A stretch of DNA of 63,289 nucleotides, filler included, from Intoshia linei (taxonomy: Eukaryota > Animalia > Orthonectida): the NCBI GenBank assembly GCA_001642005.1. It is 5 parts of 5 records of this genome, joined end to end, with 100 filler letters (N's around TTAATTAATTAA, not from the genome) between each part and the next. Parts side by side here need not be neighbours in the genome. Positions count along the whole stretch, not along the records: positions 41,861 to 60,810 come from LWCA01000756.1; 4 more parts are not named here. One strand, 5' to 3'. The translations under genes were made by a program, and so were the position numbers. Under the pieces are notes generated by a model. It was given only the letters and a program-made list of their open reading frames with translations. It had not been told where the DNA came from and ran no database searches. Of this stretch, positions 7,162-60,910 are shown one piece after another (the first letter of the stretch is position 1; the number at the start of each line of letters is the position of its first letter).

Positions 7162-8549
7162 TTTATTAAAATTTTAATATACTAAAAATATAACAGTAGG
7201 GACGTTCCCGAAAAGAATCGGTGTTCATTTTTTTAAACTTAAGTGGAATTAACTGCACATGTATATGATGAATGTAATATATGTCATTGAAATTTTAAAA
7301 ATTAGTTATTTATTAGTTGTATTTTTATAATTTTCCATATCCCTTACTAATAAATTATTAGTAACAATAAATTAAGCAACTCTGCTACTAATAAATCAAT
7401 GCCTCAAAATTAAGTTATCTACTAACCGTAAGTCTCACTGTGTAAATTAATTTATAAAATATAATTTATATTAGCTTTTAGATACCAAAAAAATCGTCAT
7501 AAGAAAAATGTGCATGGTATTGTATGGTGTAAATTATATTATATCTTATATATCTACCATACTATGGTACGATAATAGACGAGGAAAAAAACAATTACAT
7601 TTTTTTAAATGTTAAATGTTGATAAATATTTATGTTAATTTTAAATTTAGCACCCCGTTAGTCAGATCCATTATTTCCAGTACCTTATAAAATAAAGGAA
7701 TACTACTTTAAAATTCCATGTAAGAATAATATTTCATTGATATTATATACAACCCTATTAATATCGAAAATGAATAGTGTTGTCAAACCGGTTTACCGAA
7801 ATAAAATATTAGAAAAGCATGTTAATTATCGGTTGCCCAATTGAGTAAGAATAATTTTACTCTTTTGGATACTTAAGCAGTAATAACTTACATGTTGAAA
7901 AAATTAATACTAGATTAAGTTCTTCTGTTTTTTTGAATTTAAAAAATCATATTTACAACGTATAAACAGTAACTAATTATTTGACATTAATGCTAATGAA
8001 ATATATCAACTGAAGATAAACGGTTCTAGCATATTCAACAAAATAATATTCAGGCGATCTGAAAATTCAGAGTTAAAAAGATTAAAATGAGCCAATTATG
8101 GTAAAAAAGTGTTTAAAAGTTGAAAATTTTAAAAATAAATAATTTACATATATACTCAAAAGACCACAAAATTATGTGGGCTACTGGTTGCCGACCCCTG
8201 CTTATAACTTAAAATTTAAATTAATAACACCCATAAATCGTAATAAGATTGTAAATTCATAACTCTGCACACCTTAAATCAATGTGACATGAAATTAAAT
8301 AGTAAATTTAAATTATTATTATGATCAACATTTCAATATAATCATTTTTACTTGTACTTAACTCTTTGTTTGTGTGTTATCGTTTATTTCAATAACTAAG
8401 AGAATTAGAATTTTATAAACTCCATATTTTTATTACAGTTTTTTCCGTGAATAAAAATATGATAAATTTCCACTTCTCAAACTCACACCTTACGGGTCCA
8501 AAACCCCAATTGTCCTTTTTATTAAAAATCAAACAAGTTGGAGAATTTA

Positions 8550-9845
8550 AAGATTATAGGCGTTTAAATGCCGTGACAAAAAGGGATTCTTATCAAACAA
8601 TAAGTCCTGGCGATATGTTTAACAGTTTAAAAGAAGGGCGAATTTTTTCGACGTTGGATCTGAGTAAAGGATTTTGGCAGATACCATTAAAGGCGGAGCA
8701 TCGACATTTGACGGCGTTCGCGACAGATGCAAATGGATTGGGTAATAAATTGTTCCAATTTAAAGTGTTGCCATTTGGATTGACAAACAAACCAGCGGCG
8801 TGTCAAAGATTGAGTGACAAGGTACTGGCGGGAGAAGATCATGCAGTAGCGTATTTGGACGATATAATTGTAATTTCAAGAACTATGGCGGAACATGTAG
8901 GGCACTTGAGAAATGTATTGTCTAGATTACGAAAATTTGGTTTAACGGTGAACCCGGCGAAATGTTATGTTGATGCTAAGGAATTGACGTATTTATGTCA
9001 CGTAATTAATACAAATGGCGTAGGAACAGATCCGGAAAAATTAAAGAAAGTTGAGGAATGGCCAAAACTTACAACTGTTAAAGGCGTAAGAAGTTTTATT
9101 AGTTTCGGTAGTTACTATAGGCGATTTGTGCCCCATTTCTCAGATTTATGTGCTCCATTGAATGAGTTAACGAGGAAAGGGCGACGTTTGCATTGGACAG
9201 TTGAATGTGACAAGGCGATGGGTCAATTAAAGGAGAAAATGTGTAAGTATACATTTATTAATCATGTAGATTGAGATGTTCCATTTATTTTGGATACAGA
9301 TGCCTCAAATTCAGGCATGGGGGCTACATTTTTCAAGGCGAAGGGTGGATAAACACAGTAAATGTTGCAACGGGAGCTACTCCGTCGAAAATAATGTATG
9401 GTAGAGAATTTAATTTACCAATAGATATAGAATACAGTTAAAACAGCATAATGATAATATTGCGAATGAAAGGAGTTTATCATCGTATAGGCGGAAATAT
9501 ACGAATAAAATGAAGGAGAATTACGACAAAACTGTCCCAATGAAAACGAGTCGTTAGCGTAAGGAATTTGTACATAATTCACCTATTACAAACAAGCTTG
9601 ATCAAAGATTCAGGAAATAAGATGAAAATAAAGAAGACATAGGAAAACAGGAATTGGCGGAACAAGACATTGAGTTAGGCGAAAAACTTTATTGCTATTG
9701 TCGACGAACAGAATTTATTGAAGATGGTGGAGGTTTCATGATGAACTGCGAAAATTGTGACGATTGGTTTCACAGTAAATGTTGTAACATAACAAAACAT
9801 CAGGCGGATAATTTAAAAAAATTTATTTGTAAAAGATGCGATAAA
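8550..9845 (+). mobile_element. Ty3/Gypsy pol remnant: RT, start of RNase H, integrase tail, PHD finger
   Basis: DYRRLN, LDLSKGFWQI, FGLTN, YLDD; PFILDTDAS at ~9280-9305; ATGATPSKIMYGREFNLPID at ~9366-9426; C4HC3 PHD at ~9684-9843. The first ~35 aa of ORF 8447 derive from the Helitron-like repeat. Confidence 0.9.
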
Positions 9846-9945
9846 NNNNNNNNNNNNNNNNNNNNNNNNNNNNNNNNNNNNNNNNNNNNTTAATTAATTA
9901 ANNNNNNNNNNNNNNNNNNNNNNNNNNNNNNNNNNNNNNNNNNNN
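9846..9945. other. Artificial contig spacer
   Basis: 44 N + TTAATTAATTAA (stops in all six frames) + 44 N. Confidence 0.97.
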
Positions 9946-29139: not shown

Positions 29140-30310
29140 TATTCTAAAACTTTGGTAAAAACTTTACAAACTGTTTCCGTAGTGATATCCTTGGTTGCCA
29201 CCATTTCTGACCATCCGGAATAGTGATCTACCATGTTAACAATTTATCTTTTTCCGTTGTTTGACTTAGGTAAAGGACCGATTATATCAACTTGCCAGAG
29301 TTCATTAGACTCATGCGTATTAACTGGTTTTAACGGTTTACTTTTTTTGTGATTTTGATGTTTGGAAAGATTACATTTATTACACGCCTTTACAAACATA
29401 GAAACTTGATCATACAATTTAGGGAAAAAATATTTAGTGCTTATTAATTTGCTTAATTTACTCACGCCTGGATGGACATATAAATTTGATTCATGATGAA
29501 ATTTAATTACTTTGTCAATTATAGTTTCTGGTACAAGTGGTACCTGACCATCTCGCCTTCTAAAGTGTATAATACCGTCTACCAACGTAAAATGTATACG
29601 GTATTTATAATATACATTATCTTTTTCAATATCCTTAGAATGTAAAATAAAATTAAAGAGAATTTTACAGGAATTGTCGTACTTCTGAGCTTTAAATATA
29701 TCGAAAATATCCTTGTTTTGTAATGGCCGTTTTAGTAAATATTTCTGTAATGTGGCATCGAGATAATAAATCTGCCGCTAAATTTTCACGGCCAGATCTG
29801 TATGCAATGACGAAATTAAATTCTTGTAAAACATGTATCCATCGGATTAATCTAGAATTTACATGATTCGAATTCATAATGTTGACTAATGGATTATGAT
29901 TTGTTAAGACAGTAAATGCTTTTCCAGACAAGTAATATTTAAATTTCATTACCGCCCAAAAGATTGCAAGAAATTCCTTTTGTAATACACTGTAATGCTT
30001 TTGAGTAGGAGTTAAAGATTTTTTGGCGTAATATATAACATTATCACCTTGTCGTAAAACAGCACCCAGTCCATGGTTGGATGCGTCTGTTTCTAAAACC
30101 AATTCTTGAGTAAAATCGGGTGCACAAACAGTAGGGGATGAAGTCAGTATGCTTTTCAATTTCATATAGGCTGACTCACATTTTTGACACCAATTGAACT
30201 TACATCCTTTTAATAAAAGCATACGAATTGGAGAAGTTATAGTTGAATAATTATGTATGAAGCGTTGTAAATAGTTACACATACCTAAAAATCGCCTTAC
30301 TTCATTTATT
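29140..30310 (-). mobile_element. Ty3/Gypsy pol remnant (RT end, RNase H, integrase)
   Basis: ETDAS, EFLAIFWA, NLAADLLSR, HH-CC zinc finger, WQVDIIGPLP, VDHYSGW. Confidence 0.9.
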
Positions 30311-30319
30311 TTTTTTATT

Positions 30320-30761
30320 TTAAAGTCGATTTACCACATATCATTGAATTTTTTAGTGTAGATCGGTTTTAATGGTTGAGTTCGTTTACGACGTCCCGAT
30401 TTTCCAAGGTTCACAAATTTTTATCCAATCATGAATTTGTTTTGACATTTCTGGCCAAAAATAATGATTTTTAATATTTTCTAGAGTTTTGTATATACCT
30501 GAGTGGTTGTAAATTTTCTCATTGTGGAAGAATTTTATTATTTCTGTAGTTTTGCTTTGGGGTACTATGGTTCGTAATGTATTAGGTTGTTTATAATATA
30601 TTATGTCATCTTTAATTATTAATTGTTTGATGTATGGCAATAATGTGTTTCCTAGAGTGATTGTATCTAATTTGTTTATTTTTTTATAAATTTCTTTGCA
30701 GTCTTTATCGTCGTTTTGTGCTTGTTTAAGATTAAATATATCATTAGATGAGTAGATATGG
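30320..30761 (-). mobile_element. Second Gypsy integrase zinc-finger fragment
   Basis: FHNEKIYNHSGIYKT...YFWPEM...CEP. Confidence 0.8.
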
Positions 30762-30861
30762 NNNNNNNNNNNNNNNNNNNNNNNNNNNNNNNNNNNNNNN
30801 NNNNNTTAATTAATTAANNNNNNNNNNNNNNNNNNNNNNNNNNNNNNNNNNNNNNNNNNNN
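30762..30861. other. Artificial contig spacer
   Basis: 44 N + TTAATTAATTAA + 44 N. Confidence 0.97.
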
Positions 30862-41760: not shown

Positions 41761-41860
41761 NNNNNNNNNNNNNNNNNNNNNNNNNNNNNNNNNNNNNNNN
41801 NNNNTTAATTAATTAANNNNNNNNNNNNNNNNNNNNNNNNNNNNNNNNNNNNNNNNNNNN
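41761..41860. other. Artificial contig spacer
   Basis: 44 N + TTAATTAATTAA + 44 N. Confidence 0.97.
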
Positions 41861-43450
41861 CTGAGATGGCATACCACAACCCTACTTTAAATGGGAATTT
41901 CTCCACCATTTTATCATATTTTTCATCATAAAATTTCATGAACGCGGCAAAGTGAATGAATAATGTGCGAAAAATCATAATTAACACAATACTTCTCGCA
42001 CACTGCATTTGATAATTCAATGCACACAGCGTAATCGGCAAAAACTGAGCATAAATCCATAAGCGAATTTTTATAACATTCTTTATGAATATTGTTAACT
42101 AAATCTTTTCTACCTAACTTTATTAAAATTTTCACAGGATCCGGTACAAAATGATACTTGCCACCAACATTAAGCAAAAATTTGGAACAAAAGTACTTAT
42201 ACTTAAACTTGAAAATCTTTGTCTCCAAATTGAATTTTGACGAAAAGAAATTAATTTCGAATCCATTACTTAAGTCCATTTTAAAATCATTCAACATTGT
42301 TGAATTCGATATAATACCCATAAGAAATGTTATGTTGAGAATGAAAGTTGAAGCGTCACTAGATTTTCGCTGGAATGGTATCAAACACTTCAATTTAATA
42401 AGTGGTTCATAAATAATGGATAGGAAGTGCCCATTATACCATAAGTTAATATAGTATTGTAGAATACCATAGTACTTCAATATCATGCAATCATATTTAG
42501 GTGCAACAATTCCCTGAAATTTGTCATACTTCGATATATCAATTTCGATGTGACTTGTTTTATTCATTAAAATCGAGTCATCACCGCTAAACAAGTATTT
42601 AACGTCGGTTCCCATATTCCTTATTTCATTTGCGAAATCTTTTGGCGACATATCGCAGTACAATTTAACATGATCTTCCAATGATAAAATTATACGCTGT
42701 TTCAATTCTTTGAACATCGAACAAAAGATTGCATTGATATCCTTCGAATGATAAACAATCGTTTGCAATGTTGCATTGGTCGATAGTGCCGTCATTGTTA
42801 AATTTGGTTTCGGAACACGTTTAATAGACAAATAATATGTGTCTAGCTTTCTTGTGAAGTGGAAAATCCGGGACGATGCTATCAACGACGATAGATTTAT
42901 TTTATTAGGTACATGTATACAATTAGCGTTCAACGTTATTTTATCTGCACAAACCAACTTATGCTTTGCAAAATCGACAAATGATGATATATATGACTTT
43001 ATCATATTACTTGAATAACAATCCCAGTCGACAATTTTAGATAATTCAGGAACACTGAAATTGCGCTTCATAAGCGCTATTCATAATTCACGTGAAGTGT
43101 AAGGTATTTTTACATACATTGTGGTTTTTAATTTAAGTGTAAGCGTATCAAACTCTGATTTCTGATGTAAACCTTTTATATTACACATAATATATCTTCC
43201 AGAAAGTAAGTCTAGATCATAATTATGAATCATCCATGCGTCAAGGCATTGATCTATATAATTTATGTCTCAAAATACATTATCGATAAACGTCTGTAAA
43301 AGTGTAACAGTAGGTAACATCGGAGTATACATACTTTCAACAACATTATCAATTTCACATTAGGTAATTGATAGGTAGCATTAGTGTTCAACAATTCAAA
43401 GATCTGTGGTTCAACCACATCTACATATTTATCAGTACATAAAACCATAC
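41861..43450 (-). pseudogene. Endogenous viral element: alpha-like (Martellivirales; nege/kita/virga-like) RdRp with permuted C-A-B motifs
   Basis: KRNF, QTIVYHSKDINAIF, FSGDDS (42577-42585), EIDISKYDK (42523-42546), QRKSSDASTF, FNLETK, YFCSKF, VPDPVKILIKLGRKD; intronless; in-frame stops at 43081 and 43270. Confidence 0.92.
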
Positions 43451-43464
43451 TCACATTTGGTAAC

Positions 43465-44135
43465 ACATGATAATGATGAATTAAACATTCAAAAATATCA
43501 ATCAAATGATGCTCATTGTAAAGAAGTCATTGAACTTTTACTTAAAAACAAACCTGTTGATCCATCCAATAAATATTATCGCAACATAAGTAAGTTTACC
43601 ATTAAAAACAATCTGCTTTATTTTAGTAAACGGAAGGCACATAATATGCTTATTTTCACTCCAATACCATTAAGAGATAAATGAATTAAAAATTTGCATT
43701 ATCAGTCTCATTCAGGTATTAATCAAATAACTATGAAAATTATAAAGGATTTTTATTGTACTGGATTGAAAAAGGCTGTTATTGATTTTTTAGAAAATGT
43801 TTAAAATGTAATTTATTTAAAACTGGTAGGTGACGTTATAATTATCCATTAAATCAAGTAGTTTCATCTAAATTTAATGAATTGTGGCAAGTCGATTTTG
43901 CTGGTCCAATGCCAATTACCAAAAACGGAAATCGTTATTTATTGGTCATGGTCGATCATTTTACTGGTTGGCCTGAAATCTTTTCTATTGAAGAAATGAC
44001 TGCGGATTGTGTTGCGTATAACATATTAAATAATATTGTCGCAAGGTATGGTGTTCCAAATTAAATTCACATCGATGAAGGTACCCAATTTGATTAGATA
44101 TTGTAAAAAATCTATGCTCAGCTTTAGGGATCAAG
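43465..44135 (+). mobile_element. Ty3/Gypsy integrase remnant
   Basis: IQKYQSND, HSGINQ, WQVDFAGPMP, VMVDHFTGWPE, YGVPN*IHIDEGTQF. Confidence 0.88.
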
Positions 44136-44229
44136 ACTTTACAATAATTATTACAAACATCGTGATATTTTCAGCATAAGTAAAATCACTTATGATAAGT
44201 CATACTTGTCCACTCTTTCAGACACATTG

Positions 44230-45000
44230 TCATTTTTACTGATTGAGAATTTAAAGATTTTCTTCTACATGTAAGAATATCAGGTCATGGATGTAAAGCA
44301 CAGCTAAAAATTTTCTTGCCATATTTGATAAAATTGGATATTTATTTGTGTTATTCACACCACTTTAAAATCGATTCATTTTCCAAATATTTTGTATTTT
44401 CGGAAAGGTACAAGTTTAATTCATCATCAGAATCAATTCCTTCACATTTTTTTTCATTAATTTGTGCATAAAATCTAGCAAATCGACTCTTTTTTGATTC
44501 TGGTGGTGGTTTCACATCAACAAGTTCTCTAGTTTTTGCTTCAGAACTCATAAGAATTTTTGATTTGGAAAATTCTGATTCCATTATGTTTCGGTAGTGA
44601 AGATTTGTTATGAAATTAAAATTGATTTCAAAAAATTTCATTTCATAAATTTCAAGAAAAATGAGAACAATTAAAATGTAAATTAATAATTTTTCAAAAT
44701 TATAGAAAATATTAATGAATTACTTTCAACTCATCAATAATTCTTGTTTTGTAGCGATTGTATTCCTCAATTAAAGCATTTTCAAAGTACCTTTGGAAAA
44801 TAACTTTTCTTTGTCTTTAAACAAATTTTTAAATGTTGGATGTTCTACAATATTGTATGGTTGTGACGTACAAGCAATAAATTCAAGAACATTATCTTTG
44901 AATGAAAAAATTGATTTAGAGCCTGTAATCGAACTTTCCTCCATACTTGCATCATTTAAATTACAATATGCAATTCGTTGAAAGTAATCTGAATTTCAAA
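44230..45000 (-). mobile_element. Degenerate hAT transposase fragments
   Basis: QPYNIVEHPTFK (N-terminal part) and DELNLYL...ILKW...KYPILSNMARKFL (dimerisation domain). Confidence 0.75.
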
Positions 45001-45924
45001 TTTTTTAGAAACAACAAAAAATTCATTAAGATAAGGTGATTCGAACGTGTTTTTAATATTTTCAATGTACTCATAATCAATGATATTAAGCGGGACTAAA
45101 AATTCTGTAAGTCCTTCACAGACCTTATTTTATATTTCCTCAATAGACTTTATTGTTATTGTTATTTATTTAATTTATAAGTTTTATCTCAAATAGATTT
45201 TGAGAATACCCCAAAATGTAATTTAATACAAATCTAACGAGTTCTTAAGATATAAAAGCAAACTTTTAGTGTATGTTTTATATTTTTCAAGGTCTGCTTA
45301 AAAGTCTGCTTGTTTTTGATTATAAGCATTTTTCCTTCTACTCTCCAATATAAGAAGACTTCTTATAATCGAGAAAAGACAGTAATATTAAATTTAATCA
45401 AAAATAAATTTGTCACTTCTTGTGCTATGCGTGATACGGTATTTGATATGGAGCATTCTATAACACGAATATATCTGCCAATAATGGATTTAATGTTTTG
45501 AACTTATATTAGTTTTTCAAGCTTTCCTCCAATCGAGGAAAATCAGCATATCTCTTAGCCTTTATCTTTATATTAACGGAAAGCTTTTTCTGGCTTTTAG
45601 TCGTAATATTTGAAATGTTAAACATTAAAATCAATAATTACAATGCGTTAAATAACTTATAAGTTACAATATGTATTATGAAAATAAACTAAATTACAAA
45701 TTACGAAAAATATATTATATATTAGGAAACTATTTTGTCGAGGTGGGCCTGACTTTTTGGAAAATTATACTTTAAAAACAGCCATCATGAATATAATTAC
45801 ATTTCTCATCATGTATGACCCTGGATTTTTTGTTTTTGAAAAAGTTAACTTTAACACAATACAGTTGTGTTGTTATTGTGTATTGTTAACATTGTGTATA
45901 TTAATGTCATTAAAAGTTAATTTA

Positions 45925-46389
45925 AATGTGGTACTACATACGGATAATTATTTTAAATACATTTTCTGGATAACTTAATTTACGAGATGTTGCTTAAATG
46001 AAATTGTTAATGACTTGTTTAAAGTTTTTATTACATTATGTATATTTTTAATTAAAAATAAATTTCTTTTAACCCCGTTAAAACATAAATAAGACCAAAA
46101 CATTAGTTTTTCTAGATAAAAGATTGTCTTGTATTGGTCTTGGGAATGAAAGAATGTGCGTGTTGATAGAACATCCTCATTGATACATCGTAATTGTTGA
46201 TTATTATTATTATTATATTATTTTTGATTAGTTCTATTACTTGTTGGTTAAAATACAATGAATTAAAATATATAAAATGTAATGAAAACTGAAAACATTT
46301 AATTAACAATTTAATTTAAGCAACATTTTGTAAATTAAGTTATCCAGAAAATGTATTTAAAATAATTGTCCGTATGTGAATGCACATTA
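45925..46389. mobile_element. MITE with ~85-bp imperfect inverted repeats
   Basis: 45925-46010 is the reverse complement of ~46300-46389. Confidence 0.65.
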
Positions 46390-47699
46390 GCCCGTATCTA
46401 GTTTCACAGTAGTGTTTATTTAGTTGCACAATATCCCGTATTTCAGTGAACAACACTGTAAAACATATAAATGTATGATTCATGTGACATATTATATCTA
46501 TCTATTTAGCCATCTTATGACAAAAAAGAACTAAAATTATATCAAAAAATGAAATATCAAAGATGTACGGTTTGCTATAGTTTAACATTCAAAAATAAAA
46601 ATAAAATTGAATGTTCAGGTAAATTAAAAATGATTTTTTTGAAATTATTATAAATTTTATATTTACTATCTAGCAATCTTATGTAGAAGAATCTACTGCA
46701 AATTATGTTGGAATCGAATAGGATTGATATGTGTAAAATGTGACACAAATTTTTTAAAAAAAATTCACAAATTTATAAAATATGGAAAATTAGAATATAC
46801 AAATTTATAGAACTGATAATTGTAAATACATAAATGTATATATATAATAATGTTCATAAATAATTTTGATTGATTAAATTTAAAAGTATCAAGAATATTT
46901 ATTAGAAATGTCTATAAATATAAGGTTAACCAGTAAAACATTTGTCCTCATATTTCGTTGGAATACTGCACTAACCTCCATACGTTTAAGACAGTGTTTC
47001 CCAGCCTTTTTCACAATAGTTACCCAGTAGCAGGGTTACCAACATTAGGTTATTCTTAACCCGAAATATTGAGCAAAGTTCAAAATTTAGCTAAAGCGCA
47101 GCGAATCGTGTTATGCAATTTCGCCGAAGGAGAAAATTTTTTGGGGAACCCTTTTACTTTGGGTTCTCTTATTAAAAAAAAAATAACATTTTACACAATT
47201 TTTATTGCAAAATTCAAAGTGAATACTTTAAATTTTTCATAACAAATATTAAATAGCACATTTCAAAAAATACAAAAAATTTTATTTATCATGATTTAAT
47301 TACCGAAACTATCAGTATTTTAATAAAAAAATCTCAGCATTTTCAACAAAAATTGTCAGTATAAATATTACAAATGTACTTTTCAGTATTCAATTACATA
47401 TTTGTCAGTATATACTGTATAGTCAAGGATATACTGACAATAAATTATTGATACTGAAACCTTGTCAACTGGCACCTAAAATACTAAAATTTTAATATTT
47501 TTACCGAGAAACGATTTAAAATGCTAACGCTATATATACAAGCCATTTCAAAATGACTTCATGATGAATACTTTAGAGGAAAAAAATAAATGACACAACA
47601 CAAAAGACAAGATCAAAATCAATTATTTTCGAAAATTATATTTTTGTTAAGCTTTGGCCTTATTAATAAGGTTATTTTGAGCAGACTGTTTTAAGTAGT

Positions 47700-47870
47700 T
47701 CATAAAGTCTTTGCATTCCATGTTAAAGTTGATTCTTATACTTATTTCTGATTTCACTAAACTTATTATCATTTTATTTCGATCTTTCCTCAGCACTGAT
47801 TCCATAAATGAAAAAATTAGTTCCACAAAAGCATTGTTAACTGGTATTTACAAAACTTTAGAAATTATTT
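47700..47870 (-). mobile_element. hAT transposase C-terminal fragment
   Basis: PVNNAFVELIFSFM...DRNKM resembles PxSNAxVERxFS. Confidence 0.6.
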
Positions 47871-48123
47871 TTTGTTAACTATAATTGACAAATAAACATT
47901 AACAGTCTAAAGTGTGATATTTTGTTAATAAGTATTTCATAAGTACGTAATTATAAATGTGTGCCGTTTTTGTAGATTACCAGTGCCCCAGTCATAAAAA
48001 TGTTCCACCGCACTTATCTGTCAATCGGCATGTTTCATATTTATTATGAAATTTTTGAAAATATTAAACACCCTAATAAACACTATGAGTTAATTAAATT
48101 TAATAATATATTTGGTTATAATT

Positions 48124-51100
48124 TTAAATTTGACAACAATGACCACAACCGGAAGGACAAAAATCGAATTCTTTAAACCAACTCTTCATGTGTTGAATAT
48201 GTCCACCATGAGAACACCCTAAAGTTTTAATATCATATATTATTTGTTCAATTCTATTATAATATTAATTCATTACCTAGACACCATGTATAGAGTGTTT
48301 TGACAGGAATTTGGCTAAAATAAATGAATTATATCTAATATAGTAATGATCACAGGTGGAAATAATTAGAAAACTATTTCTTGCTTCATATCGTATTGAA
48401 GAACTCTCGTCTATATTAATGGAGGATCAACACATTTAAAATATCAAGAAAATTTATACGAACACAAATATAGCATAGATATTTAAATTTAATTGAATTT
48501 TTTTTATTGTCCTAATTTATTTTATAAATACATGTATAATATACATTATATATATTACATCAACATATAAATCTCAAATTAAAATAATTCTATGGTTATT
48601 ATAGTTCGATTTTGTTTTGGGGCAGTTTTTCTGTATTATGTTGATTTAACAGTATTTATAACGATAATTATAATAATTAAATATCAATGATAATTATCAT
48701 ATCTGTACAATTTAGTATAGAATTTATCATTAGCACACATTCAATCGATTAAAAAAACAATAAGTATTACCAAACAGAACATTCAATAATAGGTAAATAT
48801 TCAGTAAAATTTTCAATTTTTATCGGTATATTGAGTTTAATAAACAAAGATCTAGTATAAATTTCAATAATTTCATCCAGTTTACATAAATGAACAATTT
48901 TGATCATTATATTCCACAATTGATGTTTTCCGAGAAGTTCTACAAATGAATTAATAATTCTCAATGCATTTGACATTAAATCATAATAATATCGTTAAAA
49001 ATCAAATATAAATATTATTTCAATCAAAACATACCGATATAACCATCCATCCAAATTTTAACAATTTCTTTATCAATTTTGTCAACGAGCATTGGTAATA
49101 AAATGATATAGATTGAACAACACGTTTGTACATCTCCCTAATTTGATAATAATTTAAAACATTCACAATAATCTATAACTCAAGATTCTCAATTACGGAC
49201 AACACCAGAATTAACTAAGGTTTTAACCCTGACGCTAGTCCGTTTTTCCTAAAAAAAAATTGGTAGTAAATAACAAAAAATTTATAAAACAAAGAAAGAA
49301 AAGATCACTGATTGATCATTAAAATATGTAATTACAATATTAGCCAAATATTTAAGAAGATGAATAATTGACGGTACAACAAACATTTCACATTTTTGAT
49401 GTTGACGAGTATCTGAATTGTCGATATTTTTATCGCAAATTAATGTCAAAGATTTTTGTTGTACGTCAGATTGAAATGTATCTTCATATTCACATTTTTG
49501 TCTTGTTTCAAACGCTTCATTTTTAATTGAAATAATCTAATTTGAAATGTTAAAAAATACATAGTATAAAATAAAATATTTACCGAATCACTCTTTTTAA
49601 ATTGAAATTTCACTACATTGGAAGATTTAATTTCATTAAAAATTCCGTCTTTGTCGATAATTGGAGAAATTTTTGAAGTTGGCTGACTAAATTCTACTCT
49701 TTTTAGGTAATATATATGATTTAAGTAATATAAAAAATAATTGAATCGAAAACTCCATCAATACAGAATATTATAGTATTCAAAATAGAAATCAAAAATT
49801 AAACCTTGGTATTATCGATAGCATTTAAAAATATTGCCTGTATGTGAAAAACATAAAATGGCGCAAAATGTATAAAATAAAACAAAAGAAAATACTAAAT
49901 ATAACGTAATTATCTAAACTAGAATTACATAATTAAGTTAATCCTTTCAAACATATAACATATATAATAAAATTTAAAATAGTGACATTATTAGTATAAT
50001 TATAATACATTTAATTTAATTTACGATTATTAGTTAATCAATTTAATATTGATTTATAAAGTTACCACATAAAGTAAATTTATTATTAATATTTTTTTAC
50101 CGCCATTTTATTCGTATTCACAGGCAATATTTGCTTTCATTTTAATTTATCACATGTTTTTAATGAAAGAATTTATATATTTTTAAATTATTTTTCAATT
50201 TTTTATGGACATGTTGCAATCCCAATTCAAAAGAATGAAATAATGAAATGTCTTTGATAAGGTAAGAATATTTTCGTAAATTATAAAAGTATTTTACTCG
50301 ATATGACAAGATTACTCTTTATCTTTGAATAAGTATCTAAAATAAATAAAATCAACATAAACATACTAGAAAAATAAAACCACCATTCAAATTTTCCTTT
50401 AGATAATAAGTAGCATAACATTCAATAATTTTCCATACGTTTGATATCTAAAAGAAATTTACACTAAATTATACCTTTGTATTTTTATTTATTTTTGAAT
50501 ACACATTTTATGAAATTTAAATATTTAAAATTATAATAATTTGGTGAAATGAAAACATAAATAGCAAATTACATAATTTTCATCAAGTTTTTTGGCAACA
50601 TTATAATTAAAATTGCACAAAACATTTGGACTGTCCATTGTCAATTTATAATTTTTTGCCAAATTTATAAAATTGTTCTAAAAATGTAATAAAAAAAATG
50701 AATTATTGAATAAACTTTTAATCCAACGTGCTGTGTCAATTCACAATTGAGAGTCAAAAAATTTTTTTCCTTTTCGTCCAATATTTTAAGTGTATCAATG
50801 ACTGAAATTTGAAAAAAATAATTAAATTTCAATTTAAGTTAATTTTAATTAATTTATTAATTGGAAATTTTTTGAAACAATTAAAATGAAGTGAACCATT
50901 TTATAAAATAAAAAAATCTTGCTGACCATTGATATAGGTAAAAATAAGTACTTGAATTTGTTATAAAATTTTTATTAATATTTAATATATATATAATATA
51001 TAATAATGTATATATTAAACTAGGGATTCTTATCTTTTGTCTTAAGCGACCCCATTTATATCAAAAAAACTTTTGTGCTCACACTTTACATAACCAATGT

Positions 51101-54100
51101 ATTCATATATCATTATTGATCTATGGTTCTCACCCTTTTTCAAGAATCACTTCTAGAATTAAAAAATTTTTAACAAGTTAATTAACTGTTAATATGAGAA
51201 AGGGTGTCTACTTAAATCCAACCGTTTTTACTAAAATCCAATCATTTTTACTAAAAATCAAAATTTACCAACCCTAAAAAATAAAATGCAGTTAAGGATT
51301 GGTAAAACGGAGTTTTTCGTTTTAGGGTTTGTAAAAGTGGATTAACCTTTAAGGGTTGATAAAACTGGATTTTTCCCTTAAGGGTAGGTAAAAGTATAAT
51401 TTTCTCTAAAGAGTTGATTAAACTGATTTTTCACTTAAGGATTGATAAAACTGGAATTTACCCTAAAGGTTTGGTAAAACCGATTTTTTAATTTAGGGTT
51501 GACAAAACTGAATTTTTCCCTTAAGGGTTAATAAAATTGGATTTTTCCTTTTAAGGTTGGTAAAACCGTTTTTTAATTTAGGGATGGTAAGATTAAATTT
51601 TTCCCTTAGGGATTTGTTCATTATTTTATATTTGTTCAAATTCATTAAATATTGAAATTGTCACTTTGACTAACAAGTGTTATTTTCACAAGTTATGAGT
51701 CATAACTTATGACCCATGGGTCACCTGTTGTCAATCATGTTATAGTCATTTCATCCATATATTCTATAAATTAATAAATAAAGACATTAAAAAAATTAAA
51801 TAATAAAAGGGAATGATTTTATCAAGTAAATTACCAGAGTAATCACGAAAATTGTGACTGCACATTAAATTTCCCTTTACACCACAAGCTACCGAATTAA
51901 TTTTTCCATAATTAAGTTCTTGGACACCATCGCTAACTTTATAACAAGTTAAATCTCCAAATCTATCGCATATATAAAATCTGTTCAATTCAGGTATTCT
52001 ACTCCATTCCATATCTTAAAATATTAAACTCATCAACTATATAAATAAATGCGCAGTGAACGTATTAAGCCAATATAACCAGTAATATGTAAAAATAAAT
52101 AGCTAAACATGGCCTAACCAAAGATTTTAAAAGGTCCCCAAAAATAGGCAAAATTTTATATTTTTTCTATTTACGTTTAATCAGTCAGTACGCAATGTTA
52201 TGAATATTTATACGAATCCAAATTGGCATTTAGCGATACAGATTATAAACTTAAATGCCAAGGATAAAAATAATTATTTACCTGTCACAACGTCATATTG
52301 ATTATTGAATGTAGAATACGTAGAATGTGGTCGATCAGTATTCCATATTTTTACATTGTAATCCAATAACAATGAACAACTCGATATCTAAATGATCTGG
52401 TATCATAAATTTTATATAGGTCATTTTTCCCCGGACTTTTTAGATTTGTTCCGTTTCGCAAAAAAATTTAATAACCAGCTATACTACATCGAATAAGAGG
52501 TCAACAGTCTATACATTATCAATCATTAATTTTACATAGAACCAATTTATCGAATATTTATTACAATCCAATTACCCCATATACATTTTATTTAAATTTG
52601 TGGCTTCATTTGATAATAAACACCTTTTACTGGACAAATTTTAGTGAATTATAAATTTTTTTACATTTACTTGATTAAAATAATAAGGTCTCCATCTGAC
52701 AATAGATACACTTTCAGTTGTTTGAAGTGACGTATCCAAAGAAAACATACCATCTTGATATTTCCATATCTACAAATTTATAGAATTAAATGGATTATAC
52801 ACCAGGGCAGTGGTTCTTAACCGGGTGTGCATAATCAATTTTTGGGGGTGCACAGAGTTATTTTCAATTTTTTTTAATTACATTAATAAAATAATTAGTT
52901 AAAAATTAATTATCAATTAATTATTTTTCTAAATAAGTAAAATTTCATAATTGATATTTTTATTATCAACAAAAAGATTAGATATAAGACACAATTTCAT
53001 CTTGTTAATACTTATTAAGTCTCAGAAAATAGACGAATTAAGTAGTAGCGGAAAACTTTTACATAACAATTGACAATTGATTAACAGTTAATAATTAACG
53101 CTCATTGAATTTATTCACAATCATTTAATAATCAAATTAATTTTGTATTTTCAACTTTCTTAAGGTATAATAATTATGTATTTTGTACTAAAAGAAGACA
53201 GTGAAATAACTGATTTTACCTGTCGTAATGATGCAGATAAAACCGAAAAACCTCATTGACAGTGTTGAAGTTATATCTCGAAAAAGAAGACGTTTTGATA
53301 TAGATGGAACAGTTGATTTATCATTTCTTCTTAATGTAACAAAATTGTAGAGGCATAATATAATGTTGCTTACATGTTTTCTAAACAAAAAAGCATCATA
53401 CCATCGGAAACGTTGATCAAATCTTGTACTCTTAACATTGCAGAAGTTCTACTTGACGAAAAACAAAAAGGGGCACTTAAATCAATTCCTTTGTAAAAAA
53501 ATTAGAAATTTAGCAAAATTTATCGAACTTCAAGTTATGGATGAACTTCGAAAAATCCTAGTCAAATTTAGTTTACAATTGGACGAATCTACTGATGTGT
53601 TTGCAAGATATGTTGTAAATGTTAACATTAAAGAGGAATATCTGTTTTGTGAGTCATTAAATAAAACTACAAGAGAATTGATGTATTCGAAATAAATTAT
53701 ATATTTATACATTAAAATATATATAAAATTTTTTATGAACCCTATAATTTACTTTGGCCCCCAAATAGAAAAATTTTTACATAGTCTCTTGATTTTTGTA
53801 GTGGTCCTTTGGGAAATATATGATATGATAGCTTTAAATATGATATTTGGTAGTTTTTGGTGTAGTATGCTTAATATCTATCCATTTGTGACTGAAATTG
53901 CCCTTGAAGTAATTATTACTTTTGTTAAAACATAGTTTTGTGAGGCTGGATTGTCTATTCTAACAAATTAAAAAAAAAGAAAAAAAAATTAGATGTCCGT
54001 GCCAGTATGCGACTGAGCCTATAAAAAACAATGCGAAGATTTAGCTTACTTCTCATTTCAAAGCACCAATAACGATCCCATTAAAATTTATGTAAATAAA

Positions 54101-57100
54101 TATGTTCAATTGTTATGTAAATGTTTTCCGCTACTACTTAATTCGTCTATTTTCTGAGTCTTTAACATTACATTTGAATAGTCTATTTTTGATTAATGAA
54201 TTCGGTGGTATGACCAGGGCTACTACATTTTCCGATAATTTTCAATGGAAAATAGATAATATATCTACTGGATATTGCAGTAGTACTTACAAAGCTTTTA
54301 GTGGATATGATAGTTGACACGTTTTCATAAATGTTTGAAGTAAGTGCATACAGGAGAGGTCGTGGAAAAAGTCATATGTCCCGTGTCTACAATCATGAAG
54401 GCCTACTTTTGTAATTTATTAACAGGTATTGATGAAAAATTTCTTAAGTATATCATAATTTCGATAATCAATGCGATTTCCAATAGTTATTTTTCATTTG
54501 TAGATAATGAACGTTCGATTAATTAATGTATAAAGATCCATTTATAAAAAAAATTTTATAGGGGCTTATACTTTCCATCGAGCCCGGGTCTACTGTTGGC
54601 TCTCCACGACCATTATTATGACAAAATCAGCTTTAATTCTTAAATTGTATCCGTTTTAATTTAAGTAAGTAATTTAGAAAAAATAGTCCCCTATTTTACA
54701 AAAATTTCGTCAAGCTACCCCTCCCCAATAAGTTATCGGATACGGTAGGTTCGGTACTGTCTCGAAAAGCTAGTTAAAGATTAGTCGATAAAAAGTAGAT
54801 GAAGAAAAATATAAACGTATATTAAAAAACTAAACGTTGGACTCCCAACTTGGGAACACTTTTCCATTCGCTCTTATAGCCTCCATTGATCTATCATGCT
54901 ATGATCACTGATTATAGATTATTAAATGACTATTTTATTATCAATATTACCCTAATATATCGATCTCGTCCTCCTGTCGCCAATAGAATAGAATTATCTA
55001 CATGCCAATCGAGAGAAAATACAGGATCAAAATGAGCGCAAAATTTATGCAAACTATATTTTGAATTTCTTATATCCCACATCTAATGTTGATATAATTA
55101 TGTAACAATTAATATAGCTTTTTTAACAATTTCAGTTTTAAAACTTTAATTTTGAAATTGTAAATGTTAAACGATTTTTGTATTGAAAATCGCAAAACAG
55201 ACTAGAAACATTACTTTTTCGTTTGAAAAAATCACCGAAACTGATGAAAACTCCAAGCCCAATAATACCAAACATGTATGCAAATATAGTGTTTTGTAAT
55301 TGTAACCACCAGTGAACACAATTTTAAGGAATATTTTCGAAAAATAGATCCAAAGTACCTTGTAAGGAAAAATTGTGTCAAAATTGTAAAATTGTGTTGA
55401 ACTGCCAGATTATACTACTCATAGAAGCTATATAATTATAAACAAAAATATTATAATATATCCAATATTTCATGTTTCCTTTGGTATCCAAAAAAATATA
55501 TTTTTAAATAGGGGTCCGTAGTACGGACTCCGTACGCTATTTGAATCGAAAACTACTGCTCTAGAGCTTATTCTAGAGAAAATGCAAGCTTTAAGTTGAT
55601 CTCAATGAGAAATTCCCATCATGTCCGACGTTACCTAAAAAGGTTGAGAACCTCTTTACTCATATTGAAACAGATATTAAAATGAATCATGTTACATTTT
55701 TAAATTCCCAAATAAGCATTTAACAATTAAAGAATAATAAACAAACCTGCACATTTCCATTGTCTAAGGCAGCAAGGAAATGGTATCGGTTAGTTGGTAT
55801 AAAACTAATGTCTCGTACCATAACTTGTGGATTTGAACAAAATTCTTTATTATCCATCTCTCTTATGTCATAAAGTTTAATGGTTCCATCTTGCGATGAA
55901 CTTAATATCAATGATTCATTGAATGGACAGAATATGACTCGTGTTATAGTTCTATTTTGTTGATGAAAAATTCTATCTACATTAAGATGTAAACACGGAT
56001 TAATATATTTTATTTTTACAAACCTTGCTTCGTACCAACTGACGTATCAATTTTCCACAAAACAACAGAACCATTAACAGACCCTGAAGCCATCATACTA
56101 GCTATTTTATGCAATTATATAACAATAAATGTGTATAATATTCTGTATATTCTAGTGTTGTGTAAAAGTTAAATTAGCCTGGTTCCCAATAATAAAAACA
56201 TTTAAATTACAAAAATAGACCCAGAAAACTAATTAAAAAATGTATTAATATTTTAAAACTTGAAGGATTTTATGGTGCGTACCGTCGGTTAATGAAACCT
56301 TTACACGACGTTAATAATTAATAAAATAATTGTTAAAGTTTGTAGTTTCATTTAAAGTTAAACTTAAATTACAGTCAGACCTCTCAATACAACCATTATA
56401 TTTCAATTTTATAACAAACTTATAAGAAATTTTTTGGATCCACAAATATAGGAAAAATATGATTATACAATTTTAAATCTACTAATCTAAAATCATTAAT
56501 ATTTTTATTATAATTATATCTAATTTATAGTTTATAAAATCAGCTTTGGATTGGTTTCTATGCTTGTACTTCCTTTAAAGGGTTTACCATGTTTTGTGTA
56601 TAATTTTGTTTTTTTAATTTCAGCTTTAGCTAATTTATTTTTGATTTTAATGATGTTTGAATTCCTCATAATTAACCCCAAAAAATATAGATAAAGTTTA
56701 ATTTTAAAGCAGTTGTTCCAGATTCAAATTGTGTACGGGCTTCTGTTTCAAAATATTTATTTTTTTGTAACCAAAGGAAACATGAAATATAAAACATTTA
56801 TGAAAAAATTAAAAGTTTTTTCTCATAAGATTTGGTAACATCGTTTTTCAAAAAAATATTGGAAACAAAGGATTTTTCCTTATCAGTTGGTCAAATTGGA
56901 TTTTTTATATTATGGTTGGATTAAGTGGATTTTTTAAAAAAATATCGATAAAAGTCGATTTGTCCCTGGATGTTTGAAATGGTATTTTTTATTAACACTT
57001 ATGGCACTGTAAATTTTATTAATGGTTGAATAACAGTGGGTTGAAATAATAATGTAGAGGTCGTATAGACTTTAGGATAAAATCCTTAACATCTAGAAAT

Positions 57101-59105
57101 TCTGTAATAAATATTAAAAAATCTATATAAATAATGAAAAGTTGATAGAAATTTTATTTGAATCTCATGGACTCAGAAATATAGTTTTTGACCCCTAAGG
57201 GGTCTAGGAACCCCATTCAGGAACCACTGATATAAATATACATACATATTTTTTTGTACTTATTTCTAAGTAGATTGTACATTGTTAATAGATTTTTGTA
57301 ATTTAATTTGTAGGTTATAATATGGTATCTTAATATTTCAGTTTTAACTTGGGTCTGTAGTGGATGATATTATTGTATAAAGTATTTCATAAGATTAACC
57401 TAATTATTAACCTCACAAGGATAATAATAAAGAGATATATATAAAAAAGATTAAAGGAATTGACATAATTACATTTAATTTTCAAAAATTAGTTTTTTAA
57501 TTTTTATACTGACATTCCAAAATCATCAAACTTACAATTCAATATTTTTACTGACAAAAATACCATTATATACTGACAAGAAAGCAATTATAAACTGACA
57601 AATATGTAATTGAATACTAACAAAATACTTTTTATTATTGATATTTTAGTGTGTATACTGACAATTTTATGTTGAAAATACAGAAAATTTTTTATTAATT
57701 ACATTTATTTCTATACAGTCGATTCTGTTCTATATAAACATGAAGGGACCAGGTTTTGATCGTGTTCATACTATACTGTAATATAAAAATATATGAATGG
57801 TGATAAGAATATAATTAAAAGTTTCGAAATGTCCCACTCAATGTTAGTTCAAACATTGAGTGGGACATTTTATACAGTGTTCATATAGAACAGAATCGAC
57901 TGTATATAGTAATAAATATAATAAAAATTTAAACAGTTTCATTATGATTACAATTAGATTTGGACCAAATAACATCCGAGCAAACAAAATTCAAATTGTT
58001 CTTTAGTGGTTTTAAATTTGTTACAGCAGAAAATCCATCTTCGAGGATATTAAATATTTTAAAAACTAAAATTTAATATAATTAAACAATACACACTTAC
58101 TAGATGCTGTCATAATTACCAGAAAATAATAATAGTTCTCAAAAACAGTACCGATCCAAGAAGAGATCTTCAAAAGAAATCCAAGAATTTTAAAAAACGC
58201 AAATGATAATAATATTCTCATCAATTTTATTATGTGAAATTTGAATCTTCAGTAAAAATCACAAATTATCCATTATTGTTAAAAATAAAAAACACAGTAA
58301 TTGTAATATTTCTTTTTCCTTAATTTTTAATATGAAATAATCGGTTCGTGGTAAAACAAGTTTGCAAATTTCTGATTCAGAGGGCTGATAAAAGTGAATG
58401 GTAACATGTTTAGTGTAGGTAATAGTGAGATGTTTATACAGTAGATTCTCTCTATATTAAAGTGTCAATTTGCTTCAACATAGAGAAACATTCATGTACT
58501 ATGATCTTGTAACTTACAAAAGTGACAGCTTAATTTTATAAAGTCGAAATTTCAATTACAGTTTTTTTCCAGGGTGCTAGAAAAATAAATTAAAAAAAAT
58601 ATATCTTTAGGGCCAAAACCTCAAATTACTCTTTTTTTTTAATGAAAACAGCCTTAGAATTTAAAAAAATTTACAGGTTCTATACGCAAATGTTAACAAA
58701 CAATACAATTAAGATAAAATAATTCTCTTTAAACTAAAAAGTAATGTGATATGACGGTTCCACCTGAAACAAGTTTGGGAACCACTCCTTTAAAAATTAA
58801 TAATAGTCAATAGTAAGATTTTGAAGTTAGATTTTCAACGTGAATCTATTTTTTTGGTATAATAAAAATGTGCCCTCTGCAGAGCTAGGTGGTTTGTACG
58901 TAGTACATAACAGTCAACCTAGTATACATATTTTTGCATATACATTTTTATATTATAACTTAATTTAAATTGACAGTTTCTGTTTGTCACCCTGACATTT
59001 AATATATAAATATAATCCTATACTATATCTTCCTGCAACAACAATTTGTTTTTCATCTCCTCTTAAACTAAGTGAATTTAATGGGGTTTTGAGCTCTTGT
59101 TTCAT
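48124..59105 (-). CDS. WDR24: GATOR2 complex subunit WDR24, multi-exon
   Basis: QIVVAGR/FKIF..., CSDVIWS, SSSQDG, DNGNVQ/MWDIR, ATGGRD, VRWRP, WNTDRP, C-terminal RING LYTWCLGCSHGGHIQHMKSWF...CPSGCGHCC*; middle exons not all resolved. Confidence 0.9.
51200..51612. repeat. Degenerate ~29-30 bp minisatellite in foldback arrangement
   Basis: About ten units of ttaagggttgataaaactggatttttccc preceded by inverted units; related array at ~28985-29160. Confidence 0.65.
52809..54080 (+). mobile_element. Degenerate hAT (Buster/Charlie-like) element in WDR24 intron
   Basis: Terminus cagtggttcttaacc; FSLQLDESTDV, KEEYLFC, CEAGLS motifs. Confidence 0.75.
57716..57902. mobile_element. TA-flanked MITE with internal perfect hairpin
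   Basis: TIRs cagtcgattctgttctatat; 19-bp perfect inverted repeat at 57827-57870. Confidence 0.8.
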
Positions 59106-59292
59106 TTTTCTTCATCAATAACATGAAAGGAAATTTATGAACTAATTACAAAATGTTAAATACAAGTCATATTTCACTAACCATTTATACATTATCTATT
59201 TCGAAATTTGCTTTTTTAACTTTATTATGACTATTTCAAAATTTCAAAGACTAACAGTTAATTTTGCCATTTTCTGAAGTGCTTAGTAAAAT

Positions 59293-60045
59293 TCTTTACT
59301 TATATAAAAATAAACGTATGTGCATGTAACCATTTATTGAAAAAATTGACAGTCGCAAGATTTAAAAAATCCAATTTTTCCCAGAGCCTGTTTTTATCTA
59401 TTTTTCAGTTTCAGAATTTGAGTCTTTCATGGTCAAAAACCCAATTTTTCTTTTGTTTAAAAAAAATCAGCCCAAAAAATGAATAAAACATACATTCTGG
59501 GACGCGTTTTAAAATCATTAACATTGTCGTTAATCTCAGACTCATAAACGCATACCTTCATGGTCAAAACCACAATTACCTTTTGCTTTTAAAAATGAAA
59601 CGTCCTAAAATTTTTTAAACATAAGTTGTGGGATAGTTTTAAAAATGACAAATATTATCATAAATGGAAACCTCAAAAATTCTTATTTCGAAACTATTTT
59701 ATTAAAACAAAAAATTTGAAATCATTAATGGTTCTACAATTAAAAAAAAGATTATTCTGATGGAGCTTATTTCAATTGAAATAAATACAAAATTTCAACG
59801 GCAGAAATCTATGCATTCCCGGTAAAAATGATAGTGATAATATTATTCATGTTTTAATTATAATGATCCTACAATTTATAAATAAAAAATTGTCTTCACA
59901 GGTTTGGGAACCATTTCTTTAAAATATTGGTAATACTGAATAGTGCCATTTTTATATGAGATTTTATTTTTTTGGTAAAATTAAAATAGACCGCCCTCGG
60001 CAACGCTAGGTGCTTCTTGTACGAAGTACAAAACAGCCAAGCTAG
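59293..60045 (+). mobile_element. Apparently complete non-autonomous Helitron-like element
   Basis: 5' TCtttacttatataa, 3' short palindrome tgtacgaagtaca then CTAG|T; no TIR or TSD. Confidence 0.65.
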
Positions 60046-60329
60046 TTAATTATAAAAATGTACACTGCGTTCACGTTCATTAGAACATAACTAATATATG
60101 TCATAAATATTTTTCACCAAAGATTTGAGTACTTACAATTAAGTGAAATGAGAAGATCATCTTAGTAAATATTTTAACTTTATTTTTTGAAACTGAATGA
60201 ATCTTCACTTATATTTTGCAATTAATAAAAATCGAGTTATATAGTACTGTACACAGTTATAAAAACATTTATTAAAAGTGATTTTTTTATCGATTTTAAT
60301 TGATAAAAATATTTTTAATTACTACATAG

Positions 60330-60810
60330 ATACATGTATGTGACCACCTTGTTTCTCCAACAATTTGATCAATCTGCTATCCATTGAACCTGTAAGTTTC
60401 TTTATTTCAGCTTTTGTTACTTCACTAATGACAATTTTAATTTTGCGCCATAAATCATTCTTACATTGAAATTGATGACCACCAGAATATATACGTCTAA
60501 AATAAATAATTATTTATCAATTCATCTTGAAAAAATGACCAGAAATTCTCGATACAATTGAGATCAGGGGAATAAGGTGGCCAAATCATCAATTTATCAC
60601 CATGAATTCCTTTATTTTTCAAAACTTCTTTCGTCAATGCAGATAAGTGAGACGGAGCATTATCTTGTTGAACTACAAAATTTTGAGGCTTAAATTCCTC
60701 TTGGTTTTCGATCCATTTAAATAACCCTTCTTCCAATAATAATTTATACTGTAGGAAATTAATCTTTATACCATCTTTGATTCTTATAGGGCCAATTAAT
60801 GAACCATTAC
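60330..60810 (-). mobile_element. DD37E (TRT/ITmD37E-like) transposase 3' fragment
   Basis: QQDNAPSH to IENFW spacing is 37 residues; WPPYSPDLN; downstream GHQF...SMDSRL. Confidence 0.8.
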
Positions 60811-60910
60811 NNNNNNNNNNNNNNNNNNNNNNNNNNNNNNNNNNNNNNNNNNNNTTAATTAATTAANNNNNNNNNNNNNNNNNNNNNNNNNNNNNNNNNN
60901 NNNNNNNNNN
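60811..60910. other. Artificial contig spacer
   Basis: 44 N + TTAATTAATTAA + 44 N. Confidence 0.97.

What the first reader, a model, noticed from the sequence alone, without database searches (positions are those of the whole stretch)
41861..43450. Endogenous RNA-virus polymerase with a circularly permuted active site (motif order C-A-B)
Seen: the 381-aa minus-strand ORF has alpha-like RdRp motifs, but FSGDDS lies about 12 residues before motif A (EIDISKYDK). No GDD follows motif B (QRKSSDASTF), which runs almost directly into motif D/E (FNLETK, YFCSKF). The frame extends upstream through two stops, and conserved residues look decayed (KYDKSQ to KYDKFQ, QRKSGD to QRKSSD). Known: canonical order is A-B-C; permutation is rare (birnaviruses, permutotetraviruses, grapevine virus Q, some nege-like viruses), and nege/kita-like viruses are known mostly from arthropods and plants. 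Inference: a fossil of an undescribed permuted Martellivirales lineage that infected the germline of an apparently non-arthropod (spiralian-like) animal. The contig also carries host WDR24, consistent with real integration.
Basis: partly seen in the sequence, partly recalled or inferred. Interest (0 to 1): 0.88.

Follow-up and report, generated by a model that had tools for sequence, protein, structure and literature searches.

The report
Aphid-type virus fossil in orthonectid worm
A broken piece of an RNA virus's copying-enzyme gene sits in DNA assembled for the tiny marine parasitic worm Intoshia linei; its shuffled active site is an already described trait of a virus group found in aphids and centipedes, so the new part is that this group likely infected such a worm, probably more than once.

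Summary
Confirmed: the minus-strand ORF is an RdRP_2 polymerase with motif order C-A-B. The order is not new. [quoted passage not shown] That is the proposed Centivirus group, whose C-A-B order is published (PMC8045340). A second I. linei copy differs mainly at variable columns (3 of 33 conserved vs 15 of 35 variable), which points to two separate integrations. Contigs of a second study carry the fragment, and one splices an antisense piece of it to a host exon (30 letters on the short side, a hint only). A viral-family RdRP in I. linei was already mentioned in print (PMC6396948), not characterised. Verdict: a known kind of endogenous viral element in an unexpected host.

The parts
41915..43454 (-). 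Endogenous viral element: 3' end of a nege-like (Centivirus-group) replicase ORF1, RdRp domain only; no helicase, methyltransferase or structural gene
   Evidence: tblastn of 11 viral replicases hits only 41935-43454 in the window at E<=1; left border from the loose end at 41914 in run X4
41926..43080 (-). 384-aa open frame (P0001); open only because two frameshifts compensate
   Evidence: pLDDT dips to 53-64 over aa 51-80
42577..42585 (-). Motif C (GDD, aa 166-168), 15 residues before the motif A Asp; predicted at the turn of a beta-hairpin that directly precedes the motif A strand
42514..42546 (-). Motif A (aa 179-189) with one substitution at a near-invariant position (aa 188)
42334..42372 (-). 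Motif B (aa 237-249) with one substitution at a near-invariant position (aa 241); no GDD follows
42845..42913 (-). Stretch between two compensating frameshifts, where the ORF is out of the viral frame
43081..43454 (-). Upstream part of the element with two stop codons and a frameshift near 43350
42917..43098 (+). Likely antisense cryptic exon inside the element, joined GT..AG to 46510 in one contig of run X4; an X3 contig stops at the same donor
   Evidence: tables 5 and 8; splice sites checked; stops in frame, so non-coding
43465..44140 (+). Decayed LTR-retrotransposon (gypsy-like) pol/integrase fragment abutting the element, opposite strand; multi-copy
   Evidence: Pfam rve E=6.3e-9 for 43834-44061; variant contigs and a depth rise; left border inferred from contigs stopping at 43494; 'gypsy-like' is my recalled reading
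41861..41914 (-). 54 nt of probable Tc1-like transposase sequence abutting the element's 3' end
   Evidence: X4 loose end at 41914; its frame leads into the DDE_3 frame at the other contig end
46510..46889 (+). Two spliced host exons with a cysteine-rich frame; acceptor shared by four alternative donors (43098, about 43715, 45602, 46472)
   Evidence: no Pfam assignment
48096..56669 (-). Host WDR24 gene (annotated Intoshia linei), intron-containing
   Evidence: spliced X2/X4 contigs, the X4 one ending at 48096

Best explanation
This is a broken fragment of a nege-like virus polymerase gene in the Intoshia linei assembly, whose C-A-B active-site order was likely inherited from the known Centivirus group and which likely entered the germline when a host retrotransposon's reverse transcriptase copied viral RNA. 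Shown: RdRp identity, motif order, decay, host annotation, flanking integrase and transposase fragments, a second copy. Inferred: (1) a centivirus-like virus replicated in the orthonectid germline; (2) an LTR element's reverse transcriptase switched template onto viral RNA, leaving the virus-pol junction near 43465; (3) the insert then decayed without selection for protein function; (4) the two copies come from two related viruses of a lineage resident in this host; (5) host read-through transcription picks up an antisense piece by cryptic splicing, most likely without function. In the live virus the permuted order would still build a normal palm, motif C being moved in sequence, not in space.
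For: RdRP_2 E=2.4e-60; best fold match alphavirus nsP4, TM 0.74. The top 10 of 150 listed representatives are all C-A-B, 9 with the same 15-residue C-to-A spacing; overall 23 of 183 classified homologues are C-A-B (3 of 187 proteins skipped). Named top hits: Wuhan house centipede virus 1, Hubei negev-like virus 1, Aphis glycines and A. gossypii nege-like viruses, Indomegoura nege-like virus 1. Tree with motif C masked, 39 of 184 rows: 8-row clade, 99/96. AU tests on that tree reject placement with Negev virus (p=0.027), as a deeper separate lineage (0.009) and with the second permuted group (0.040). The word [IV]PFQRKS occurs in exactly those 8 of 184 rows (chosen after the tree). Decay: 2 stops, 3 frameshifts, 9 of 78 invariant columns changed against 0-8 for 13 extant viruses left out in turn. 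Second copy P0121, annotated I. linei on another contig, C before A; 27 of 103 differences, 3 of 33 at conserved and 15 of 35 at variable columns, Fisher p=0.002; 9 residues shared by the two copies and none of 13 viruses. Contigs from two studies match with 0-1 differences.
Against: On a smaller, simpler tree (26 rows, LG+G4, quick) none of the alternative placements was rejected (p=0.19, 0.07, 0.15); the groups were named after seeing the tree; the element has a long branch and odd residue make-up, and its place inside the clade is unresolved. No single contig spans the element and WDR24; the spliced joint has 30 letters on its short side, one under the tool's bar, and was laid at 90% likeness. 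X1 may be the assembly's own source. No target-site duplication or other direct footprint of the integration was found, so the LTR fragment may have inserted later. The DNA of the second copy could not be read.
Confidence: 0.8

Rival explanations
1. An undescribed, independently permuted Martellivirales lineage specific to spiralians.
For: No relative above 47% over the ORF or 50% in a partial match; long branch; motif order changes at least 6 times on the 39-row tree, so independent permutation happens; the simpler AU tests did not reject a deeper placement.
Against: 99/96 clade with named centiviruses, identical C-to-A spacing, shared diagnostic word, AU p=0.009 against a deeper position.
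Confidence: 0.07
2. Assembly artefact or contamination: viral RNA, or DNA of another animal, joined to Intoshia sequence.
For: The element sits at a contig end between repeats; both contig ends lie in one transposase and abut in frame, so the contig may be a loop through a repeat; no contig spans element to WDR24; a parasite sample could hold DNA of its host (inference).
Against: Stops and frameshifts exclude a live virus; exact match in runs of two studies; an unspliced, DNA-like run (X1) holds it; an X1 contig runs 40 nt past the last virus-aligned base; a GT..AG joint links it to a host exon 3.4 kb away; a second copy is on another I. linei contig.
Confidence: 0.06
3. One integration, later duplicated, rather than repeated infection.
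For: The two copies are far closer to each other (74% over 103 columns) than to any of 13 viruses (39-54%) and cover the same gene region.
Against: Their differences avoid conserved columns (p=0.002 conserved vs variable; binomial p=0.014 against a uniform rate), as expected if they diverged as working viruses.
Confidence: 0.15
4. The element is kept because its antisense transcript feeds small-RNA defence against the virus, as arthropod elements feed piRNAs.
For: Antisense GT..AG joint in X4, an X3 contig stopping at the same donor; LTR and transposon-rich setting; arthropod precedent (PMC6580184 passages).
Against: The same acceptor also takes three other donors, one in the LTR fragment, which looks like loose splicing; no small-RNA data; the Piwi status of I. 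linei could not be read; at about 11% change at invariant columns the match to a live virus may be too poor.
Confidence: 0.12
5. A domesticated, active host RdRp.
For: An open frame of 384 codons with GDD intact; a gene is called on it (P0002, 359 aa).
Against: Off-frame stretch, upstream stops, substitutions in motifs A and B found in 0 of 183 homologues; the only splice evidence is on the opposite strand.
Confidence: 0.02

Closest known systems
Proposed genus Centivirus (Wuhan house centipede virus 1, Indomegoura nege-like virus 1, Aphis gossypii nege-like virus; PMC7154061, PMC8045340, PMC11172052)
   Same: RdRP_2 domain, C-A-B order, 15-residue C-to-A spacing, shared word before motif B, one clade at 99/96
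   Different: At most 47% identity; a dead integrated fragment; host is a marine orthonectid, whereas described members come from aphids, centipedes, spiders and insect pools
Sandewavirus and Bemisia tabaci nege-like viruses 1-3 (also C-A-B; PMC11596407, PMC11098327)
   Same: Permuted order
   Different: The Bemisia viruses form a separate branch; no row named as a Sandewavirus was identified here, the second permuted group (Hubei virga-like virus 7, Glossina negevirus) is my inferred stand-in and was rejected as sister at p=0.040
Nelorpivirus (Negev virus)
   Same: Nearby nege-like clade, about 37-42% identity
   Different: Canonical A-B-C order; rejected as sister at p=0.027, not rejected on the simpler tree
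[quoted passage not shown]
   Same: Partial viral gene beside retrotransposon fragments, decayed, hint of antisense transcription
   Different: Spiralian host; piRNA production untested
Viral-family RdRP genes noted in the I. linei proteome (PMC6396948)
   Same: Same species; read there as probable transfer from viruses
   Different: The text read gives no locus, virus group, motif order or decay; which protein was meant could not be told
Permutotetravirus and birnavirus polymerases
   Same: C-A-B order; Thosea asigna virus RdRp ranks 7th in the fold search
   Different: 10-12% identity; other virus groups; permutation is convergent (inference)

Membership tests
Martellivirales-type RdRp (Pfam RdRP_2) | Scores above the RdRP_2 cut-off | tested here: met
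   205 bits against cut-off 27
Centivirus (proposed) | [quoted passage not shown] | tested here: met
   99/96 clade; three alternatives rejected; not rejected on the simpler tree; BARV-1, HVLV-4 and WhIV-8 were not identified among the rows
Centivirus (proposed) | Permuted C-A-B motif order | tested here: met
   PMC8045340 passages
Centivirus (proposed) | Non-segmented genome with methyltransferase-helicase-RdRp ORF1, glycoprotein and SP24 genes | not testable with these tools
   Only the RdRp end is integrated here; the rest of the host genome is not held
Nelorpivirus | Canonical A-B-C order | tested here: not met
Endogenous viral element | Present as DNA and carrying inactivating changes | tested here: met
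   Unspliced run X1 holds 42176-43494 with 0 differences; stops and frameshifts
Endogenous viral element | Physically joined to host DNA | tested here: inconclusive
   Same contig as WDR24; a contig runs into the LTR fragment; GT..AG joint with 30 letters on the short side; no spanning record
Endogenous viral element | Orthologous insertion in related species (age) | not testable with these tools
   No eukaryotic genome search available
piRNA-producing viral elements | Antisense 25-30 nt small RNAs with 1U bias | not testable with these tools
   Only contigs were available

The most novel reading that the evidence does not exclude
Orthonectids carry their own heritable centivirus lineage, which has entered the germline repeatedly, and the antisense-spliced fossil supplies small RNAs against it: arthropod-style viral memory in one of the most reduced spiralian genomes. 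The first half alone (a resident lineage, repeated integration) I put at about 0.65.
Probability: 0.12. Interest if true: 0.72.

Novelty: new member of a known kind. Interest (0 to 1): 0.4.

Why it matters
The enzyme topology is ordinary for this virus group. The host is the point: a group described from land arthropods appears to have replicated in the germline of a marine orthonectid, probably more than once. That widens the group's host range and predicts a live relative in orthonectids. The surprise is tempered, since nege-like and other Martellivirales viruses are already reported from flatworm samples (PMC10269781, PMC9241645). It also explains, at least in part, a passing remark in print that I. 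linei has a viral-type RdRP gene: it is decayed viral DNA, not a working enzyme.

Tried and rejected
No whole genome is held, so copies were sought only through protein searches: one further I. linei copy. The protein atlas gave no answer for the WDR24 exon. Run search: 6 runs listed, no RNA holder listed; 4 of the 6 were laid, on 41861-48500 only. Scans of viral contigs (3 of 152 stretches confirmed) and metagenome contigs (41 of 387) gave no relative above 50% over a long match. No target-site duplication around the element. The cysteine-rich host exons got no Pfam family. AU tests on 26 rows rejected nothing. Paper searches: Intoshia+virus 12 papers, 10 listed; 'Intoshia linei'+'endogenous viral' 0; nege-like+annelid 1; none of the listings showed a description of this element, but subscription papers are not searched, including any genome paper for this species. 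No mention of Intoshia in PMC11097642 (main text) or PMC10101049 (main text and 1 supplement). The supplement of PMC12147562, which may give the Piwi count for the orthonectid, could not be read. Earlier scan notes: none by sequence or place; none relevant by words. Depth differences were not read as copy number.

Full report
1. Observation. The minus-strand frame 41926-43080 is open for 384 codons and scores 205 bits on Pfam RdRP_2. Its only GDD (aa 166-168) lies 15 residues before the motif A aspartate (aa 181); motif B starts at aa 237 and no GDD follows. A model built from 25 permuted sequences (mean pLDDT 83.8) puts GDD at the turn of a beta-hairpin directly before the motif A strand. Its best solved match is alphavirus nsP4 (TM 0.74), with the permuted Thosea asigna virus enzyme at rank 7. 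The permutation is real.

2. The frame is not intact. For about 20 codons (42845-42901) relatives match the neighbouring frame, not the ORF; the ORF stays open only because two frameshifts cancel. Model confidence dips there. Upstream are two stops and a third frameshift, and viral similarity ends at 43454. Residues 188 and 241, in motifs A and B, are shared by 0 of 183 homologues. Of 78 columns invariant in 13 permuted viruses, 9 are changed; the viruses themselves, left out in turn, deviate at 0-8. No other part of the replicase is in the window.

3. Relatives. Of 187 proteins examined, 184 could be classified: 159 A-B-C, 24 C-A-B including the query, 1 without GDD. The 10 best of 150 listed representatives are all C-A-B. 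Named ones are Wuhan house centipede virus 1, Hubei negev-like virus 1, Aphis glycines nege-like virus 1, Aphis gossypii nege-like virus, Indomegoura nege-like virus 1 and a Drosophila negevirus. Trees were built with motif C blocks and the off-frame stretch masked, so that motif order could not drive the result. A quick tree of 64 rows (all 24 permuted, 40 canonical) and a careful one of 39 rows both put the element in an 8-row clade with four named centipede/aphid viruses and three unnamed Logan sequences (96; 99/96). On the 39-row tree, AU tests reject a place with Negev virus (p=0.027), outside the nege-like cluster (0.009) and with the second permuted group (0.040). On a 26-row quick tree with a simpler model none was rejected (0.19, 0.15, 0.07). 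The groups were named after seeing the tree, and the branch is long.

4. What is in print. [quoted passage not shown] PMC8045340 (abstract and one passage) states that C-A-B is found in Centivirus and Sandewavirus, and A-B-C in Nelorpivirus, Aphiglyvirus, Kitaviridae and Virgaviridae. PMC11596407, PMC11098327 and PMC11172052 (passages) agree. The permutation is therefore inherited and known.

5. Host. The window is a string of contigs joined by spacers. The element's contig, 41861-60810, is 18,950 bp, the length recorded for both the ORF's protein and a protein named WD repeat-containing protein 24 of Intoshia linei, 99% identical to an exon here. Its exons run from 56669 to 48127. I. linei is an orthonectid, within Spiralia. 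PMC6396948 (section 13 and a supplement search) already says that I. linei has RdRP genes of a viral family, probably transferred from viruses; the text read names no locus or virus group. Nege-like and other Martellivirales viruses are reported from flatworm samples (PMC10269781, PMC9241645; passages), so a spiralian host is unusual for Centivirus but not for the order.

6. Is it integrated? Six runs from two studies were listed; four were laid on 41861-48500. X1 shows no GT..AG joint and holds 42176-43494 with no difference; it may be the assembly's source. X2, X3 and X4 skip a 55-nt GT..AG intron at 46616-46672, and X2 and X4 skip a WDR24 intron, so I infer that they are RNA-derived. X2 and X4, from the second study, match the element with 0-1 differences. 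One X4 contig joins 42917-43098 on the plus strand, antisense to the polymerase, to 46510 with GT..AG ends; an X3 contig stops at the same donor. The short side has 30 letters, one under the tool's bar for a bridge, so this is a hint. The same acceptor takes three other donors, and all four upstream pieces have stops in frame. No record spans element to WDR24, and the two contig ends abut inside one transposase, so local order needs long reads. Decay, DNA-type evidence, two studies and a second copy together make integration likely.

7. Second copy. P0121, annotated as an I. linei hypothetical protein on a 19,458-bp contig, has GDD just before the start of motif A. The copies differ at 27 of 103 columns: 3 of 33 conserved, 9 of 35 intermediate, 15 of 35 variable (Fisher p=0.002). 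They share 9 residues seen in none of 13 viruses. Neutral drift after duplication would spread changes evenly, so most of their divergence likely arose in working viruses. This suggests two integrations from a lineage resident in this host. It rests on 103 columns and no DNA for the second copy.

8. Mechanism. The element abuts an LTR-type integrase fragment on the opposite strand (rve E=6e-9) and a probable Tc1 fragment at its other end. In mosquitoes such elements are associated with LTR retrotransposons, and in ticks they yield mostly antisense piRNA-like reads (PMC6580184 passages). I infer capture by a retrotransposon reverse transcriptase in an infected germ cell, then neutral decay. No target-site duplication was found, so later insertion of the LTR fragment is not excluded. 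The antisense splicing is most simply read-through noise; a defensive role is possible (about 0.12) and untested, and the Piwi status of this animal could not be read.

9. Verdict. Observation confirmed with corrections; interpretation partly supported. It is a new member of a known kind: a Centivirus-group endogenous element, with known enzyme topology, in a host not described for that group in the searches run (subscription papers not covered). Interest 0.4. The labels 'gypsy-like' and 'DC-STAMP-type RING' are recalled and come from no call.

Noticed in passing
window 9846-9945, 30762-30861, 41761-41860, 60811-60910: Four identical 100-nt spacers (44 N, a 12-nt all-frame stop word, 44 N) join separate contigs; adjacency across them is not shown.
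   Followed up: partly
window 41861-41914 and 60300-60810: Both ends of the contig lie in a Tc1-like (DDE_3) transposase and continue each other in frame on the minus strand, so the contig looks like a loop through a repeat: two flanking copies collapsed, or a tandem unit.
   Followed up: partly
window 44354-44989: The last two exons of the annotated WDR24 protein (P0193) lie beyond the 3' end of the spliced WDR24 contig (48096) and beside a weak hAT dimerisation hit (E=0.004, under cut-off); they look like transposase debris wrongly added to the gene model.
   Followed up: partly
window 46510-46889 (+): Spliced host exons encode a cysteine-rich frame that recalls the C-terminal RING of DC-STAMP/SPE-42-type proteins (recalled, no Pfam hit); four alternative donors use one acceptor, all with stops in frame upstream.
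   Followed up: partly
window 42176-43494: In run X1 the element's contig has depth 18.6 against 7.7-9.4 for six nearby exact-match pieces; a near-identical second copy or split haplotypes could explain it, but depth here is not copy number.
   Followed up: no
P0121 (another I. linei contig, 19,458 bp): Second endogenous copy, annotated as a hypothetical protein; it keeps the viral frame where this copy has slipped.
   Followed up: partly
39-row tree: Motif order changes at least 6 times among nege-like RdRps, and canonical Negev virus sits among permuted lineages; many nodes are open, so reversal to A-B-C is possible but not shown.
   Followed up: no
window 8396-9274 (+), 29244-30330 (-): Other retroelement fragments: reverse transcriptase; RNase H and integrase zinc finger. 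No DNA similarity to the integrase fragment beside the element.
   Followed up: partly
P0217: A 167-aa canonical-order nege-like RdRp fragment from short Logan contigs; not related to this locus.
   Followed up: no
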